Assembly: GCA_000004985.1 (NCBI GenBank)
Contig: GG738864.1
Reading direction: 5' to 3' (one strand)
DNA: 64,000 nucleotides
Source of the DNA: Naegleria gruberi
Lineage: Eukaryota
A program made the translations under genes and the position numbers. The notes below the pieces were generated by a model, which saw nothing but the letters and a program-made list of their open reading frames with translations, was not told the origin of the DNA and did no database searches. Below, one piece after another: positions 14,444-20,114 of this stretch. Numbering within the stretch: position 1 is the first letter of the stretch; every line of letters starts with the position of its first letter.

Positions 14444-15877
14444 ATGAAACTTATCAATTTTCTAAGTCTTCTTGATAGCTGTTGGTGCACTGTCTTCTAA
14501 CTTGGTTTCGTCACAAGAAGTTAGGGATGTTTCTTTGAAAGTATGTTAAAAATCTCTAGATTTAGTCAATTACAAGCTTTTAAGATACACTGGCTTCTCT
14601 ATCGACCTAATTCAATTTCTTGTTTCCAAAATGACAAACGTGTCCATTGAATTTTATGAAGCTCCAGATGGTACCTTTGGTAGTCCAACTGCTGCGAATG
14701 TGAATGGAAACTGGTCAGGAACCATCGGTGAAATAATATCTGGTCGTGCTGATGTCATGATTGGCCCTTTAACAATTACTCAAAGTAGACATCAAGTCAT
14801 GGATTTTACAACAAGTTTCTTTGATGTTGGACTTTCTATTCTAACTCTTAAACAAGGAGAGGAATCTAATTTATTTTCATTCTTATTACCATTCTCGTGG
14901 GAGGTTTGGATTTTGATTTTCGTGAGTGCATTAATAGTTGCCTTGCTAACATGGGTTTTTGACCATGTTTCGCCTTATGGACATTCGAAACAATCAGACG
15001 AATCAAAGAATGAATTTGATTTTAGTGGTTCGTTAATCAATGTATGACAATATCTGGTCAAGACGGAAATCCAGGTAAAAGCTGGTCAACCAGAATCATG
15101 TTGTTAGGTTATTTCCTCTTTGTCATGATTATTCTCTCAACTTATACAGCTAATTTGGCAGCCGTCCTGACAACAAAGGTTCAATCCACAAGAGTTACTG
15201 GACTATCTGATATCAGAACCTACGGATTCAAGTTTGGTGTGGCTAAAAACTCTGCTCCTGCTTCTTACATTTCCAGCAGTGAAGACATGGCAGATATCAA
15301 AAAGAATATGGTTGTATTCGATTCCCTCGATGATTGTTTACAAGCTCTGAGAGATGGAAAGGTGGATGCTTTGATTTGGGCAAGTGCCATTCTCGAATAT
15401 ATGGCCAATCAACCACCATGTGATACTTTGGTCGTTGGTGATTTGTTTAGTCCTGGAAATTATGGTTTACCTTTTGCTAAGGGAAATTGGATGATTGGTC
15501 ATTTCACTTCGGTGTTGTTGTCGATGAGAGAAAGTGGACTTGTTGAGAAACTCAAAAGGAAGTGGTGGATTGATAAGGGAAGCTGTTCATTGGTTGAATT
15601 GACACAAACAGCAACAGGTGTAAAGATTCAAGACTTGGGAGGTATCTTTTTGATTTTGGCAGGTTTTGTAGTTGTTGGTGGTGTGGTTTTGATATTCGAA
15701 TTAGTATATAGGGCTGTATATGACAAGACAAAACACAAAACTAAACATCTGAAATATCTGAATAGATTCTTGGGAGGTGAAAAGCACCTAGTTCAACGTG
15801 AGAAAGATGTACAGGAATTGAACACCACGAATATTGCAACTCCAACACTCGAAAAAGATGGGAATATGAACCAGTAA
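14444..15877 (+). CDS. Ionotropic glutamate receptor-like channel without amino-terminal domain; frame disrupted
   Basis: An S1 lobe (YTGFSIDL...GPLTITQSRHQVMDFTTSFFDVGLSIL) is followed by M1, a pore-loop region (NEFDFS/WFVNQCMTISGQDG) and M3 with the STYTANLAAVLT signature. Then come the S2 lobe and M4 (GGIFLILAGFVVVGGVVLIF). Frame problems occur near 14470, at the TAA at 14547-14549 and near 15024-15026. Confidence 0.7.
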
Positions 15878-16055
15878 ATATATTTTAAAAGGGATATGTA
15901 GATATTGATATTTCGTAAATTAAGGTGTTTGGTGGCTTTCTTTCCAAAACTCTACAAGGCAAAACTAGTTAAATTTTCAGCCTCCAAAGACATTGAAATT
16001 GATAATGGGAATTAAGGCAGAATATATTTAATTACCTCGGGTTGAGATTGTCAAT

Positions 16056-16173
16056 GGCTACGGCCATATCACGATGAATGCACCTCATCCCGTCCGATTT
16101 GAGAAGTTAAGCATCGTCGAGCCACATCAGTACTGAGGTTGGAGACAACTTGGGAACCTGTGGTGCTGTAGTC
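16056..16173 (+). rRNA. 5S ribosomal RNA
   Basis: The 118-nt sequence GGCTACGGCCATATCACG...GGGAACCTGTGGTGCTGTAGTC aligns by eye to the eukaryotic 5S consensus. The terminal helix I pairs and a T6 run follows directly. Confidence 0.9.
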
Positions 16174-16288
16174 TTTTTTATTTAACATTTTTTTATTCTG
16201 CCTTAATAAACTGTATTGTCTAGACTTTCTTTGAAACTGAATTTACGTGAATTTATTCGGCTGGAACTTGATTTTTACCACCTTATTA
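16126..16288 (+). repeat. Left arm of inverted duplication (5S 3' portion plus downstream flank)
   Basis: This arm aligns by eye to the reverse complement of 17488-17636. Shared blocks are atcagtactgaggtt(g/a)gagacaacttgg(g)aacctgtg, ttatt(ctg/cca)ccttaataaact, ttctttgaa and ttaccaccttatta. Confidence 0.7.
16174..16179 (+). terminator. Pol III oligo-T terminator of the 5S gene
   Basis: TTTTTT immediately after the 5S 3' end. Confidence 0.7.
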
Positions 16289-16321
16289 ATAATACTGAAT
16301 TTAAATTTCCATAAGTCCATG

Positions 16322-17278
16322 TTACACCATCAAACAGCCTTTCTTTTTTTTATGTAGAGATAATACCTCTTCCAGCACTTTTTTTGGATCATCAATACGT
16401 ACTCGAAACTTTCTAACACATTCTTCCACTAATTTATCAATATTTTCATTTGTTTTTGCACTTGTTTTCAAAATTGTACAATTAGTCAATTCAAATTCTT
16501 TTACAACTTCTTGTACCATTTCCAAATTAATTTCATACCTATCAGGGAGATCACATTTGTTCATGGCAATCATACAGGGAGCATTCTTTCCCTTCCTATC
16601 TACAAATTTACTTATCAATATTTTCAATTCTTCCAAACTTTTCTGGTCTATCATTGAGCAAACAAGAATCAAAACATCGAACATGCAATTTTTCCAATAA
16701 TAATCAGTTTCTTCCTCACTACACGTATCCAAAAAGTTTACAGTTTCCTCTTCATCATCCACAGAGATTGTTCGTTTGTACGAATCATAACCGGTAGGGT
16801 CATATTCTAGGAAGAATTGCCCATATATAAATCTTGTTATGATTGAGGATTTTCCACTGCCTCCCCTTCCAATCACTAACAGCTCAATAATTGGTGTATC
16901 AAATTTTTTTCTAAATATTTTCCCTTGTTTTTCTCTTGTTCGAATCAAATGAATAAAGTAACCTAAACTTTTAACAACTCCAATCTTGGCGAATTTATCA
17001 AAAACATGCAAAGATTCCATTTCTTTTGATTCTACTGATATCGAATACTGATCAAATATCACACCAACAAAAATCCAACAAAATTCATCAATGTATTTTG
17101 CAATAAATTTCGAATAATTTGGATGAATCAATCGGAAACTTAATACATTCGGAATGGAGTTTTTTAATTGATGGAAATATTGTTCATGCAATTTTCTTTC
17201 AGCTAACTCATAAAACGGAGACAAGTATGAAATAATTTCTGTATGAATCTCTTGGGGAAGTTGAAGAAATTTGGACAT
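16322..17278 (-). CDS. Ras-superfamily small GTPase with N-terminal F-box-like extension and CaaX end
   Basis: 318-aa ORF with N-terminal LPQEIHTEIISYLSP (F-box-like). The GTPase motifs are G1 GRGGSGKS, a divergent G3 DTCSEEE (consensus DTAGQEE), G4 NKCD and G5 SAK. The C-terminus is KKKKGCLMV, polybasic plus CaaX. Confidence 0.7.
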   Translation of the reverse strand: MSKFLQLPQEIHTEIISYLSPFYELAERKLHEQYFHQLKNSIPNVLSFRLIHPNYSKFIAKYIDEFCWIFVGVIFDQYSISVESKEMESLHVFDKFAKIGVVKSLGYFIHLIRTREKQGKIFRKKFDTPIIELLVIGRGGSGKSSIITRFIYGQFFLEYDPTGYDSYKRTISVDDEEETVNFLDTCSEEETDYYWKNCMFDVLILVCSMIDQKSLEELKILISKFVDRKGKNAPCMIAMNKCDLPDRYEINLEMVQEVVKEFELTNCTILKTSAKTNENIDKLVEECVRKFRVRIDDPKKVLEEVLSLHKKKKGCLMV

Positions 17279-17393
17279 TTTTTAATGATAAGAAACCTCC
17301 TAAGTTGCTCCTTCAAACAACAACTCACTTGCCAAGGAATAAACATGGATTTAATTAGAAACATTGGGAGTAATATTTTGATGAGATCAAGAA

Positions 17394-17466
17394 GCCGACA
17401 TAGCTCAGTTGGGAGAGCGTAAGACTGAAGATCTTAAGGTCCCTGGTTCGATCCCTGGTGTCGGCA
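17394..17466 (+). tRNA. tRNA-Phe (anticodon GAA)
   Basis: A 73-nt cloverleaf: acceptor GCCGACA/TGTCGGC plus discriminator A, D arm GCTC-AGTTGGGA-GAGC, anticodon arm TAAGA-CTGAAGA-TCTTA, and T arm CCTGG-TTCGATC-CCTGG with one T:T mismatch. An oligo-T run follows. Confidence 0.85.
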
Positions 17467-17468
17467 AA

Positions 17469-17473
17469 TTTTT
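17469..17473 (+). terminator. Pol III oligo-T terminator after tRNA-Phe
   Basis: TTTTT lies 3 nt downstream of the tRNA 3' end. Confidence 0.55.
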
Positions 17474-17487
17474 ATTCCGATAATAAC

Positions 17488-17636
17488 TAATAAGGTGGTA
17501 AGAAAGAAGGGGTACAGAGCAAGACCTAGAAATAGAAGAAATTCTTCATCTAACTTCAAAGAAAGTTTATTAAGGTGGAATAAGAAGGAAAAAACGACAA
17601 CACAGGTTCCAAGTTGTCTCTAACCTCAGTACTGAT
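17488..17636 (-). pseudogene. Truncated 5S rRNA copy (3' ~40 nt) with its downstream flank; right arm of inverted duplication
   Basis: 17601-17636 is the reverse complement of about 5S positions 71-107 with two differences. The adjoining 17488-17600 matches the 5S downstream flank in blocks. The 5S 5' half is absent. Confidence 0.7.
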
Positions 17637-17864
17637 TGGAAAATTCCATTCCTTTTAAACAATTTAAAACTTGGAAATCGTCTAATACATTCAAATTCCA
17701 CTGTTTCAATAATTCAATCATAAATTCCTTATCATTTCTTAGAGAAGGTGGTTATTTTGAAATGAAAATATTTCAAACCCATTTCCTTATCATTTCCAAT
17801 TTGGAAATGAATAAATTGTAGCAAATCTTAAAGCACATTGAATTATTGTAATTGTTGGATTATT

Positions 17865-18881
17865 TCAAATAACACCAATATCAAGTGATGTTAATTGTTT
17901 CATTTCACTTATGAATTTGGATCCTTCTACACCAATTTGATTGTAAGTAATGTCAAGTGATGTTAATTGTTTCATTTCACTTATGAATTTGGCTCCTTCT
18001 ACACCAATTTGATTGCCAGTAATATTAAGTGTTAATTGTTTCATTTCACTTATAAATTTGGATCCTTCTACACCAATTTGATTGTAACCAATATTAAGTG
18101 ATGTTAATTGTTTCATTTCACTTATATATTTGGATCCCTCTACACCAATCCCATTATAATATATATCAAGTGATGTTAATTGTTTCATTTCACTTATGTA
18201 TTTGGCTCCTTCTACACCAATTTGATTGTAACCAATATTAAGTGATGTTAATTGTTTCATTTCACTTATATATTTGGTTCCCTCTACACCAATTCCATTA
18301 TAATATATATTAAGTGATGTTAACTGTTTCATTTCACTTATGTATTTGGATCCTTCTACACCAATTTGATTGTAAGTAATGTCAAGTGATGTTAATTGTT
18401 TCATTTCACTTATGTATTTGGCTCCTTCTACACCAATTTGATTATCAGAAATATAAAGTGATGTTAATTGTTTCATTTCACTTATGAATTTAACTTTATC
18501 TGGAGAGTTACGCAACCTATAACAAAACTTAACATTTACAATACTATTCTTGAATTGGCTTTTCATAAACAATTCAATTCTATTTTCTGTAAATTGTTTT
18601 TTAAATTGAATAACAAGTCTTGAACGTTCCCGGATCACATTAAAGAATTGTTTTGAAATTAAAGAACAATTATTCAAAATAAACCACGAATCATCAATCA
18701 TGGAAATTATGTCAAAACAAACATCATCTGAAAATATATCTTGTTGGAGTTTCACAACTTTTTTTGCTTTCTCTTTCATCGAATAATTATCATTAATCAA
18801 TAGCTCCTCCGAAATTAATTGATTTGCAAAATCTTGGCTGATTCGTTTGCTCATTTTTTTATTACTAATAGTTTTCTTCAT
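17865..18881 (-). CDS. Leucine-rich-repeat protein with possible degenerate F-box-like N-terminus
   Basis: 338-aa ORF. The C-terminal 210 aa are 8.5 near-identical 24-residue units of the form ISEMKQLTSL(D/N)IxYNxIGVEG(A/S/T)K(Y/F). Confidence 0.75.
   Translation of the reverse strand: MKKTISNKKMSKRISQDFANQLISEELLINDNYSMKEKAKKVVKLQQDIFSDDVCFDIISMIDDSWFILNNCSLISKQFFNVIRERSRLVIQFKKQFTENRIELFMKSQFKNSIVNVKFCYRLRNSPDKVKFISEMKQLTSLYISDNQIGVEGAKYISEMKQLTSLDITYNQIGVEGSKYISEMKQLTSLNIYYNGIGVEGTKYISEMKQLTSLNIGYNQIGVEGAKYISEMKQLTSLDIYYNGIGVEGSKYISEMKQLTSLNIGYNQIGVEGSKFISEMKQLTLNITGNQIGVEGAKFISEMKQLTSLDITYNQIGVEGSKFISEMKQLTSLDIGVI
17868..18490. repeat. 72-bp tandem repeat array (coding LRR units)
   Basis: About 8.5 head-to-tail copies of a 72-bp unit with high nucleotide identity. 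One unit carries an in-frame 3-nt deletion (LTLNI in place of LTSLNI). Confidence 0.8.
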
Positions 18882-19099
18882 ATATCAATTATGCCAGCCA
18901 TTTCATTGAACTAATGTCTATTCGATTGGTCAATCAAGAAGAACAACCAACACAAACGAATGTAAGAGAAAAGCTAATGCAGTTACTCAACCAAGAAAAA
19001 GAAGGAATGCTCATTTCCCTATGGCATCGTTCTGCAAATTGACGATGGCGTATTTACTCTTTGAGCTCAAGTTCACTTTAAAATATAAATACTTGTACA

Positions 19100-19583
19100 G
19101 TAAGTTAATATTGACAAGTTGCTAGATAACCAATCTGAACCTTCGAATAAACCATTGCCATTTATTTCACTACATGGTTGGATGTATCAATCTTGTTTGA
19201 TCGAATTTAAGTGCAATATCTTTGCAAGGTCTGTAACTTTGGCGGCCCTTGGTAAATCTTGCTTATTAGCCCAAATTAAAAATTTGGCATTTGATGGATC
19301 TTCCATAACTTTACAGGATGAGGTGCATTCATCGTGATATGACTGTAGCCCTCACTTAATCGAATTCTTAATATAAAAACAATAATATATCAAATCCTAA
19401 GAAAATAAACTTAATTAAATTATGAAAATTACAATGTATTAATTATTTGGTCTTTTATCAAATATTGGAACTTTTCAATTTGTGGTCAGTCTAACCTTGA
19501 AGTTCGTTCATTCTGTTCCTTTTTCTTTATTATTCCAAAGAGATGGTTAATGAAAGACCAAATGAATAATATCCAAAACCCAT
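19100..19583 (-). pseudogene. ARF/ARL-family small GTPase pseudogene
   Basis: Minus-strand translation gives FLIWANKQDLPRAAKVTDLAKILHLNSIKQD*YIQPCSEINGNGLFEGSDWLSS. This is the ARF/ARL C-terminal half, with TGA in place of the conserved Trp codon. Upstream remnants (MG start at 19583, RLD..TT, LGFDI) are interrupted by stops, frameshifts and deletions. Confidence 0.65.
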
Positions 19584-19715
19584 GGCTACTCCTTCTTTGG
19601 AAACTCGTTAATCATATTTCTTTCCAAAATTATTAATTGACTGAGCAAGTACAAGTTTTGAAATCTATAAATTGTGGAAAGTAAAAAATTAAAAACAGAA
19701 TACAAAGAAAACAAA

Positions 19716-20114
19716 ATGAAAAGATTTATTTCAATTCTATTAATTGCATTGACGTTAACAGTTCTTGCTCTTTCATTCACATCAGGAGTTAGTGCCACCA
19801 CTGAAGAACAAGCATCAACTCTCTCCTTGTATATTAGAAAGTATGGAAATAAGAAGAGAAATCTCAAGAAATACAGATTAAAGAAGAGAAAGAACAACAG
19901 AAAGCTCAACAAGTACATTGATACCTATGGAAGAAAGAGAAGAGGATCAAAGAGATTAGGAAAGAGGAGAATTATCAGAAAGAAGGTTGATGTTTATGGA
20001 AAGAAGAGAAGATTGAATAAGAAGAGAAGAATTGATACCTATAGAAAGAAGAATAGAAAGAATAAAAGAGGAGGAAAGAGAAATAAGAAGGTTGATATCT
20101 ATAAGCGTAAATAG
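19716..20114 (+). CDS. Secreted, extremely basic repeat protein
   Basis: ATG at 19716. The predicted signal peptide is MKRFISILLIALTLTVLALSFTSGVSA. The mature part is about half Lys/Arg, with repeated (I/V)D(T/V/I)Y and YG(K/R)(K/R)RR units. Confidence 0.6.
   Translation: MKRFISILLIALTLTVLALSFTSGVSATTEEQASTLSLYIRKYGNKKRNLKKYRLKKRKNNRKLNKYIDTYGRKRRGSKRLGKRRIIRKKVDVYGKKRRLNKKRRIDTYRKKNRKNKRGGKRNKKVDIYKRK

What the first reader, a model, noticed from the sequence alone, without database searches (positions are those of the whole stretch)
16011..17636. 5S rRNA gene with flanking 14-bp inverted repeat, and an inverted partial 5S copy bracketing a Ras-like gene and tRNA-Phe
The 5S gene (16056-16173) is flanked by a perfect 14-bp inverted repeat, attaaggcagaata at 16011-16024 and tattctgccttaat at 16194-16207. 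The last ~48 nt of 5S plus ~115 bp of its downstream flank (16126-16288) recur in inverted orientation at 17488-17636, with blockwise identity including the ccttaataaact and ttaccaccttatta motifs. The two arms enclose 1.2 kb holding the F-box/Ras-like gene and tRNA-Phe. This suggests a 5S-associated repeat unit that has been copied or truncated, by retroposition, template switching or an inversion breakpoint. It may mean that 5S genes are dispersed together with a conserved flank.
Basis: seen in the sequence. Interest (0 to 1): 0.55.

Follow-up and report, generated by a model that had tools for sequence, protein, structure and literature searches.

The report
Intact 5S gene beside split 5S pseudogene
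In this Naegleria gruberi window, one working 5S rRNA gene sits near the remains of a second, oppositely oriented 5S gene that a 1.7-kb insertion split in two; this is ordinary genome decay, not a new kind of element.

Summary
There is a full 5S gene at 16056-16174(+) and tRNA-Phe at 17394-17466(+). A perfect 14-bp inverted repeat brackets the 5S gene. An inverted copy of the 5S 3' end plus about 130 bp of downstream flank lies at 17467-17639. The flank similarity alone is significant (0 of 1000 shuffles reach it). It also exceeds all 6,292 other real segments of the window.

The second copy is split, not truncated. Its first 38 nt lie 1.68 kb further on at 19313-19350(-), on the same strand and in the correct order. 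Nucleotides 39-66/70, which include box A, are missing. The intervening DNA holds an Arf-family pseudogene fragment and an LRR ORF. It has no terminal repeats, target-site duplication or poly(A).

The organism is Naegleria gruberi. About 279 dispersed putative 5S genes, some partial, are already catalogued for it.

Most likely this is an old inverted duplication of 5S plus flank. Both genes were kept for a long time, and one was later broken by captured DNA.

Thirteen independent metagenomic 5S loci show no shared flank, motif or bracketing repeat. A flank conserved across 5S loci is therefore unsupported, though I could not test it on the N. gruberi assembly. Interest is low.

The parts
16011..16024 (.). 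Left arm of the perfect 14-bp inverted repeat (ATTAAGGCAGAATA), at -45..-32 from the 5S start. Its 3' end overlaps the TATA-like stretch by 2 nt (16023-16024).
16023..16034 (+). TATA-like stretch TATATTTAATTA at -33..-22 of the 5S gene. I take it as the upstream promoter element by inference. PMC3369914 reports a TATA box upstream of N. gruberi 5S genes.
   Evidence: sequence; paper
16056..16174 (+). Intact 5S rRNA gene. Box A-like AGTTAAGCATCGTCG lies at nt 50-64.
   Evidence: 105.4 bits, full model
16174..16194 (+). Two T-runs (T6 at 16174-16179, T7 at 16188-16194), inferred to be Pol III terminators.
   Evidence: sequence; inference from Pol III biology
16194..16207 (.). Right arm of the 14-bp inverted repeat (TATTCTGCCTTAAT). 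It is part of conserved flank block m1.
16181..16307 (+). Downstream flank of the intact 5S (arm 1), homologous to 17467-17590 in inverted orientation. It contains blocks m1 (16190-16217) and m2 (16267-16293).
16322..17278 (-). Ras-family GTPase gene between the arms. It is 100% identical to an NCBI N. gruberi 'ras family small GTPase' and ends in a CaaX-like CLMV. It is not part of the repeat.
17394..17466 (+). tRNA-Phe (GAA). The inner end of arm 2 abuts its 3' end.
17467..17594 (-). Downstream flank of the pseudogene (arm 2), including its T-run at 17589-17594. It is 63% identical to arm 1, with indels.
17595..17639 (-). 3' piece of the 5S pseudogene (5S nt 67/71-119), with 2 substitutions and 5 deleted bases.
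17640..19312 (-). Interrupting DNA of about 1.68 kb, 29% GC, with no terminal inverted repeats, no target-site duplication and no poly(A).
17865..18881 (-). LRR (LRR_6-type) ORF of 338 aa inside the interrupting DNA. No identical protein is in the database. The best N. gruberi paralogues are 67-75% identical.
19115..19309 (-). Arf-family GTPase pseudogene fragment covering only the C-terminal third (Pfam Arf profile 111-173 of 174). An in-frame TGA replaces the conserved Trp. It is fused directly to the 5S 5' piece.
19313..19350 (-). 5' piece of the 5S pseudogene (5S nt 1-38, 35/38 identical). All three changes are G>A or C>T.
19367..19375 (-). TATA-like TATATTAAG at -25..-17 of the pseudogene's 5' piece, probably a remnant of its promoter (inference).
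   Evidence: sequence

Best explanation
The window comes from Naegleria gruberi, whose 5S genes are many and dispersed. The locus holds one intact, solitary, Pol III-type 5S gene with a TATA-like upstream element, box A and T-run terminators. It also holds, convergent with that gene, the wreck of a second 5S gene.

The two derive from an old inverted duplication that carried the 5S gene and at least about 130 bp of its downstream flank. The Ras-like gene and tRNA-Phe lie in the 1.16-kb spacer between the arms. Both 5S copies were held near-identical for a long time, by selection or by gene conversion within the family, while the flanks drifted to 63% identity.

Later the second copy was broken between nt 38 and nt 67-71. 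About 1.68 kb of unrelated DNA was captured there (an Arf-family pseudogene fragment plus an LRR ORF) and about 30 nt were lost, including box A. That copy is therefore dead.

The junctions carry no transposon or retroposon signature. End-joining or template-switch repair of a break is the most likely route; this step is inferred.

The perfect 14-bp inverted repeat around the intact gene is most simply a young, local inverted micro-copy of flank block m1, made by a short template switch. This too is inferred. I found no evidence that any of these sequences has a function beyond the intact 5S gene and the tRNA.
For: **Organism and family**
- The organism is N. gruberi.
- 279 putative 5S genes are catalogued for it, dispersed over many scaffolds, with about 15 partial entries of 80-112 nt.

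**The two genes**
- The intact 5S matches the full Rfam model. Box A lies at nt 50-64.
- The pseudogene pieces cover nt 1-38 and nt 67/71-119. They lie on the same strand, in collinear order, do not overlap, and are 1.68 kb apart.

**Flanks**
- Flank-only homology gives z = 8.3, with 0 of 1000 shuffles reaching it. It beats every real segment in the window.
- The 5S pieces are 75/82 identical (91%) against 81/128 (63%) for the flank; Fisher p = 3.7e-6. This difference is what suggests the 5S part was conserved or homogenised after the duplication.
- The upstream flanks are not similar (z 1.3-2.1).

**The insert**
- It has no terminal inverted repeats (score 10.5 against a shuffle mean of 9.2), no target-site duplication and no A-tail.
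- It contains an Arf fragment (Pfam E 1.3e-12, profile 111-173/174) with an in-frame stop.

**Comparison loci**
- Independent 5S loci have unique flanks.
- Two 5S copies of an uncultured organism with a related 5S (about 76-77% identical to the window gene; taxon not determined), L002 and L011, share a 109-nt downstream element at the same offset. Duplication of 5S together with its flank therefore occurs elsewhere too.

**No extra RNA gene in the flanks**
- The flanks do not fold better than shuffles (z -1.1 to +0.6).
Against: - **Timing is not fully coherent.** The 5S pieces are only about 9% diverged. Yet the inserted Arf fragment has no close relative in 5.8 billion proteins, and the LRR ORF's best paralogues are only 67-75% identical. 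Either the captured DNA was already old and decayed, or its source was lost or never annotated, or the short 5S pieces have been partly homogenised since the break.
- **A single insertion event is assumed, not shown.** Two or more rearrangements could give the same map.
- **No outgroup or second strain was available**, so neither the direction of events nor an empty site is demonstrated.
- **The 14-bp repeat is unlikely by chance at one given locus.** None of 2000 randomly placed 100-nt/100-nt positions in the window reached 14 nt apart from hits attributable to this same repeat, so p is roughly below 1e-3. A functional or mobile-element reading therefore cannot be dismissed on statistics alone.
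Confidence: 0.72

Rival explanations
1. The two pseudogene pieces are remains of different events. They could be two independent truncated 5S fragments, or an inversion or translocation breakpoint that fell inside a 5S gene. In that case there was no single insertion into one gene.
For: - The Arf fragment abuts the 5' piece directly, like a breakpoint junction.
- The upstream flanks of the two 5S copies are unrelated.
- Partial 5S hits exist elsewhere in the genome.
Against: - The pieces lie on the same strand, in the correct 5'-to-3' order, cover complementary non-overlapping parts (1-38 and 67/71-119), and are only 1.68 kb apart.
- Both pieces show similar low divergence.
Confidence: 0.1
2. 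The 5S gene rides in a small mobile unit. One version is a TTAA-bounded MITE-like element of about 187 bp (TTAA|GGCAGAATA...TATTCTGCC|TTAA). Another is an RNA-mediated copy, such as a 5S-derived SINE or a chimeric 5S-mRNA retrocopy. Either would explain the dispersal of 5S genes in Naegleria.
For: - The perfect 14-bp repeat is unique in the window and brackets the whole transcription unit.
- Both arms contain TTAA at their outer ends.
- 5S(1-38) is fused to the 3' third of an Arf-family coding sequence, which resembles template-switch chimeras.
Against: - Homology between the two copies continues about 100 bp beyond the right arm, so the repeat is not the unit boundary.
- The pseudogene has no left arm.
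- There is no other copy of the arm in the 64 kb.
- None of the eight metagenomic 5S loci with 100 nt of sequence on both sides, including the Naegleria-type L005, has a bracketing repeat longer than 9 nt.
- There is no poly(A) or target-site duplication at any junction.
- The termini are not the canonical piggyBac CCC...GGG (from memory).
Confidence: 0.06
3. The conserved flank blocks (YYRCCTTAWTAA) and the bracketing repeat are functional cis elements of Pol III genes. They could be a factor-binding, boundary or termination-reinitiation element, retained by selection in both arms.
For: - Conservation is blocky: 14/14 and 18/20 within a flank that is 63% identical overall.
- All five motif copies lie within 1.6 kb of the Pol III genes, and the longer motif occurs nowhere else in the 64 kb.
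- The repeat spans the unit from promoter to terminator.
Against: - The core motif is absent near the 5S in all 13 independent loci.
- The 8-mer core occurs 10 more times elsewhere in the window.
- At 63% identity, a perfect 14-mer run somewhere in about 130 nt is not rare (my estimate is about 0.4).
- The pseudogene arm keeps the blocks although its gene is dead.
- The flanks show no RNA structure signal.
Confidence: 0.07
4. Assembly artefact: a mis-join within the repeated 5S sequences created the apparent split copy.
For: 5S is a roughly 280-copy repeat in a Sanger-era draft assembly (assembly history from memory).
Against: - A mis-join through a shared repeat would produce an intact-looking 5S. 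It would not produce two diverged pieces with a 30-nt gap, substitutions and small deletions.
- The diverged flank copy is independent evidence for a real second locus.
Confidence: 0.02

Closest known systems
Catalogued dispersed 5S rRNA genes of Naegleria gruberi (279 putative genes, Table S1 of PMC3369914)
   Same: Same organism and gene family. The genes are solitary or loosely clustered, lie off the rDNA unit, and have an upstream TATA box and an internal control region. The list already includes partial, low-similarity entries.
   Different: That catalogue gives coordinates only. It does not describe flanks, an inverted pair, or a copy split by inserted DNA.
Dispersed 5S genes and isolated 5S pseudogenes of Neurospora crassa (Selker and colleagues, 1981; recalled from memory, not checked here)
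   Same: The 5S genes are dispersed in unique flanks. The coding regions are kept alike while the flanks diverge. Occasional pseudogenes retain only part of the 5S sequence.
   Different: Here both halves of the dead gene are still present either side of a 1.68-kb insert, and about 130 bp of downstream flank is still recognisably shared with a neighbouring live copy.
Template-switch chimeric retrocopies (small RNA fused to the 3' part of an mRNA; Buzdin et al. 2002-2003, from memory) and 5S-derived SINEs (SINE3, from memory)
   Same: A 5S 5' segment is joined directly to the 3' third of a protein-coding sequence.
   Different: There is no poly(A), no target-site duplication and no multicopy family in the window. 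The missing 3' part of the same 5S lies downstream in register, which an RNA-mediated chimera does not predict.
Mobile elements that target small-RNA or Pol III genes (Dada DNA transposons, Ty3, Dictyostelium TRE/DGLT-A; from memory)
   Same: Foreign DNA sits inside or next to a Pol III gene.
   Different: The insert has no transposase or reverse-transcriptase ORF, no terminal repeats and no target duplication. About 30 nt of target were deleted instead.
Short template-switch mutations that create perfect inverted repeats (Ripley's quasi-palindrome model; Loytynoja and Goldman 2017; from memory)
   Same: A short, perfect, isolated inverted copy lies about 170 bp from its source. It does not extend beyond 14 bp.
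   Different: No ancestral state is available, so the event is inferred rather than shown.

Membership tests
Eukaryotic 5S rRNA gene (Rfam RF00001), for 16056-16174 | Covariance-model score above the gathering threshold over the full model | tested here: met
   105.4 bits against a gathering score of 38, model positions 1-120
Eukaryotic 5S rRNA gene (Rfam RF00001), for 16056-16174 | Pol III signals: internal box A and a downstream T-run terminator | tested here: met
   The box A consensus from PMC3369914 matches at nt 50-64. T6 and T7 runs follow the gene. That paper's box C consensus did not match exactly.
Eukaryotic 5S rRNA gene (Rfam RF00001), for 16056-16174 | Transcribed and incorporated into ribosomes | not testable with these tools
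   No expression data available
5S pseudogene, for 19313-19350 plus 17595-17639 | Significant sequence homology to 5S | tested here: met
   5' piece 35/38, E 6e-8. 3' piece 28-nt core at 96% identity, and the full arm at E about 1e-11.
5S pseudogene, for 19313-19350 plus 17595-17639 | Loss of parts required for function | tested here: met
   Nucleotides 39-66/70, including box A, are absent, and the gene is interrupted by 1.68 kb. There is no Rfam 5S hit at the 3' piece even at E<=10, and none for either piece at the gathering threshold. The permissive scan did not cover the 5' piece.
5S-derived SINE or retroposed 5S copy | 5S-derived head with internal promoter, an A-rich or LINE-like tail, target-site duplications, and many copies | tested here: not met
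   The arm holds the 3' end of 5S rather than the head. There is no tail, no duplication, and no further copies in the 64 kb. Genome-wide copy number could not be tested.
Template-switch chimeric retrocopy (small RNA plus the 3' part of an mRNA) | Small-RNA part fused to the 3' part of an mRNA | tested here: met
   5S nt 1-38 abuts Arf profile positions 111-173
Template-switch chimeric retrocopy (small RNA plus the 3' part of an mRNA) | Poly(A) tail and flanking target-site duplications | tested here: not met
   The only A7 runs in the insert lie inside the LRR ORF, more than 200 bp beyond the end of the Arf fragment, so none marks a tail. There are no direct repeats at the junctions.
TTAA-targeting (piggyBac-like) MITE carrying the 5S gene | Terminal inverted repeats bounded by duplicated TTAA | tested here: met
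   TTAA|GGCAGAATA ... TATTCTGCC|TTAA
TTAA-targeting (piggyBac-like) MITE carrying the 5S gene | Homology between copies ends at the terminal repeats, and multiple copies exist | tested here: not met
   Homology with the second copy runs about 100 bp past the right arm, and that copy has no left arm. There are no other copies in the window or beside the metagenomic 5S genes. The whole genome was not testable.
Transposon that targets small-RNA genes (Dada-like, Ty3-like), for the 1.68-kb insert | Element-encoded transposase or RT, defined termini, and a target-site duplication | tested here: not met
   The ORFs of 60 aa or more are the LRR ORF, a 61-aa ORF at 17636-17821(+) and a 72-aa ORF at 19119-19337(+), the last antisense to the Arf fragment. 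Only the LRR ORF and the Arf fragment were scanned against Pfam, and neither is a transposase or RT. There are no terminal repeats or duplication, and the target carries a deletion instead.

The most novel reading that the evidence does not exclude
The TTAA-bounded perfect repeat and the YYRCCTTAWTAA blocks are not debris. They mark a 5S-carrying unit or a Pol III-associated cis element specific to N. gruberi. Such a unit would help explain how about 280 5S genes became scattered through this genome, with active Pol III genes also acting as preferred sites for capture of foreign DNA.
Probability: 0.07. Interest if true: 0.5.

Novelty: new member of a known kind. Interest (0 to 1): 0.2.

Why it matters
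It matters little beyond annotation. The locus should be annotated as one functional 5S gene plus a split 5S pseudogene, an Arf-family pseudogene fragment and an unannotated LRR ORF.

It gives a small, clear example of how dispersed multicopy Pol III genes evolve. The coding parts stay uniform while the flanks drift, and individual copies die by capturing DNA.

It would only become interesting if a genome-wide look showed the flank or the inverted repeat recurring at many 5S loci. That would point to a mechanism for 5S dispersal in Heterolobosea.

Tried and rejected
- **Reaching the rest of the N. gruberi genome.** Exact-protein look-ups for the Ras-like protein, the LRR ORF and a paralogue all returned nothing on record. 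Scans of bacterial/archaeal genomes and viral contigs with the 5S core found nothing. Only the metagenome scan gave loci.
- **Parent of the Arf fragment.** No protein shares even three 5-residue words with it.
- **Recent parent of the LRR ORF.** The best paralogues are only 67-75% identical.
- **Does the duplication extend further?** It does not extend into the tRNA or the Ras-gene end (z = 0.0). It does not extend upstream of the 5S (z = 1.3).
- **Does the 14-bp repeat extend?** No.
- **Is the flank an internal tandem repeat or a decayed 5S?** Not for the intact arm (z = -0.9), and only marginally for the pseudogene arm (z = 2.9).
- **Is there an ncRNA in the flank?** Only chance-level Rfam hits, the best being ceN108 at 18.6 bits, E 2.3. 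Folding is no better than shuffles.
- **Do L005's flanks resemble the pseudogene's flanks?** A blastn hint was not significant on testing (z 0.3-1.7).
- **F-box in the Ras-like protein.** Sub-threshold only.
- **Transposon termini on the insert.** None.
Full report
**1. What is in the sequence**

The region holds a full-length 5S rRNA gene at 16056-16174(+) (Rfam RF00001, 105.4 bits, model 1-120). It also holds tRNA-Phe(GAA) at 17394-17466(+). These are the only Rfam or ARAGORN hits in the 64 kb.

The ORF between them, 16322-17278(-), is a Ras-family GTPase (Pfam E 2.8e-25). It is 100% identical to an NCBI protein named 'ras family small GTPase [Naegleria gruberi]' on a 441,990-bp contig. The window is therefore N. 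gruberi nuclear DNA at 33.5% GC. Its suggested F-box is only a sub-threshold match to the first ~20 residues (E 0.05-0.07).

**2.

The 14-bp inverted repeat (16011-16024 and 16194-16207) is perfect. It is the only perfect inverted repeat of 14 nt or more with a loop of 300 or less in the window. Block shuffles give 0.235 per window. It does not extend beyond 14 bp.

The inverted partial 5S copy is also real. 16126-16307 aligns with the reverse complement of 17466-17636 (E about 1e-11 to 3e-14).

With the 5S part and T-run removed, the flank-only alignment scores 31. Dinucleotide shuffles give 12.8 +/- 2.2, and none of 1000 reach 31. The maximum over 6,292 real segments from the rest of the window is 23.5. 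The similarity goes beyond the 5S segment, and the flank is not common AT-rich sequence within this window.

**3.

A self-search of the unit against the window found a third piece. 5S nt 1-38, 35/38 identical (E 6e-8), lies at 19313-19350 on the minus strand.

Read on the minus strand, the order is as follows:

- TATA-like stretch
- 5S nt 1-38 (19350..19313)
- about 1.68 kb of other DNA
- 5S nt 67/71-119 (17639..17595)
- T-run
- diverged flank (to 17467)

The second copy is therefore an interrupted gene, not a truncated one. Nucleotides 39-66/70 are missing. They include the box A-like AGTTAAGCATCGTCG at nt 50-64. No Rfam 5S hit is found at the 3' piece even at E<=10, and neither piece reaches the gathering threshold. 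The copy is dead.

**4. The interrupting DNA**

Directly after the 5' piece comes the C-terminal third of an Arf-family GTPase. It matches Pfam Arf at E 1.3e-12, profile positions 111-173 of 174. An in-frame TGA sits where the conserved Trp should be. No N-terminal part exists in the window.

A 338-aa LRR_6-type ORF follows at 17865-18881(-). No identical protein is on record for it. Its best N. gruberi paralogues are 67-75% identical.

The insert has no terminal inverted repeats, no target-site duplication and no poly(A). About 30 nt of the target were lost. No transposase or RT was found: Pfam scans of the LRR ORF and the Arf fragment show neither, and the only other ORFs of 60 aa or more are two short ones of 61 and 72 aa that were not scanned.

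**5. Order of events (inference)**

The 5S pieces are 91% identical to the live gene (75/82). The flank is 63% identical (81/128) and carries many indels (Fisher p = 3.7e-6). The upstream flanks are unrelated.

The simplest history has three steps:

- An old inverted duplication carried the 5S gene plus at least ~130 bp of downstream flank.
- For a long period both genes were kept uniform, by selection or gene conversion within the family, while the flanks drifted.
- A later break in one copy was repaired with captured DNA.

One loose end remains. The captured Arf fragment has no close relative among 5.8 billion proteins, and the LRR ORF has no near-identical paralogue. The captured DNA was therefore already old, or its source is lost or unannotated, or the short 5S pieces have been partly homogenised since the break.

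**6. The 14-bp repeat**

The right arm is part of conserved flank block m1. The homologous block in the pseudogene (TTATTCCACCTTAAT) differs from it at two positions. The left arm matches the live copy's version exactly.

This suggests that the left arm is a young inverted micro-copy of the adjacent block, as produced by a short template switch. That is an inference from memory of the mechanism, and no outgroup was available.

The arms do have TTAA at their outer ends, so I considered a MITE-like reading. Against it, homology between the two copies runs ~100 bp past the right arm, and the pseudogene has no left arm.

**7. Is the flank a general 5S feature?**

I could not reach the N. gruberi assembly.

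The literature already lists 279 putative 5S genes in N. gruberi. They are scattered over many scaffolds, include about 15 partial entries, and are reported to have an upstream TATA box and an internal control region (PMC3369914).

A metagenome scan with the 5S core returned 13 loci. Each holds a single 5S gene.

- L005 carries a Naegleria-type 5S that differs from the window gene by 1 nt.
- Its flanks are not significantly similar to either window flank (z 0.3-1.7).
- None of the eight loci that could be tested has a bracketing repeat longer than 9 nt.
- No locus has the CCTTAWTA core near the gene.
- Two loci, L002 and L011, from an uncultured organism whose 5S is about 76-77% identical to the window gene, share a 109-nt element at the same offset downstream of the 5S (79% identity, E 1e-20). 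Pairs of 5S copies with a shared flank also arise there.

The flanks in the window show no sign of a structured RNA and give only chance-level Rfam matches.

**8. Verdict**

It is wrong about truncation and retroposition, and unsupported on a conserved dispersal flank.

The object is an ordinary product of genome turnover: a live solitary 5S gene next to a split 5S pseudogene. It is a new instance of a known kind and of low interest. A residual ~7% chance remains that the repeat or motif marks a real 5S-associated unit, and only a genome-wide search can settle that.

Noticed in passing
window 19115-19309 (-): Arf-family GTPase pseudogene fragment covering only the C-terminal third, with an in-frame TGA at the conserved Trp. 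No protein in the 5.8-billion-sequence database shares three 5-residue words with it.
   Followed up: yes
window 17865-18881 (-): An intact 338-aa LRR_6-type ORF ('ISEMKQLTSL...NQIGVEGAK' repeats). It has no identical entry among N. gruberi proteins, and its closest paralogues are 67-75% identical. It appears to be unannotated or treated as a pseudogene. It ends mid-repeat ('DIGVI*').
   Followed up: partly
window 14631-15877 (+): An ionotropic-glutamate-receptor-like gene (Pfam Lig_chan-Glu_bd and Lig_chan) is split into two ORFs that overlap by 4 nt (14631-15047 and 15044-15877). This indicates a frameshift, a very short intron or a sequencing error.
   Followed up: no
window 19674-20114 (+): A 146-aa ORF with a hydrophobic signal-like N-terminus followed by an extremely basic Lys/Arg-rich periodic sequence (…YGKKRR…, …KKRRIDTYRKKNRKNKRGGKRNKK…). 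It was not examined further.
   Followed up: no
L002 1171-1290 and L011 221-329: Two solitary 5S genes from one metagenome project (VFQM contigs; their 5S is about 76-77% identical to the window gene) share a 109-nt element at the same offset (+93/+98) downstream of the 5S. It is 79% identical and contains a B-box-like GGTTCAAYCCTC. It has no Rfam match and is absent from the other loci and from the window.
   Followed up: partly
L003 6-111: A metagenomic 5S variant whose 3' end departs from its relatives (…GAGTACTCTTTTGA). It matches only Rfam model positions 7-113 and may be another decaying copy.
   Followed up: no
window 16322-17278 (-): The Ras-family protein has a roughly 125-residue N-terminal extension and ends in a CaaX-like CLMV. 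Nothing but itself was found at E<=1e-5 among 1,439 candidates, so it looks lineage-specific.
   Followed up: partly
window 19313-19350 (-): All three differences between the pseudogene's 5' piece and the live 5S gene are G>A or C>T transitions. There are too few to interpret.
   Followed up: no
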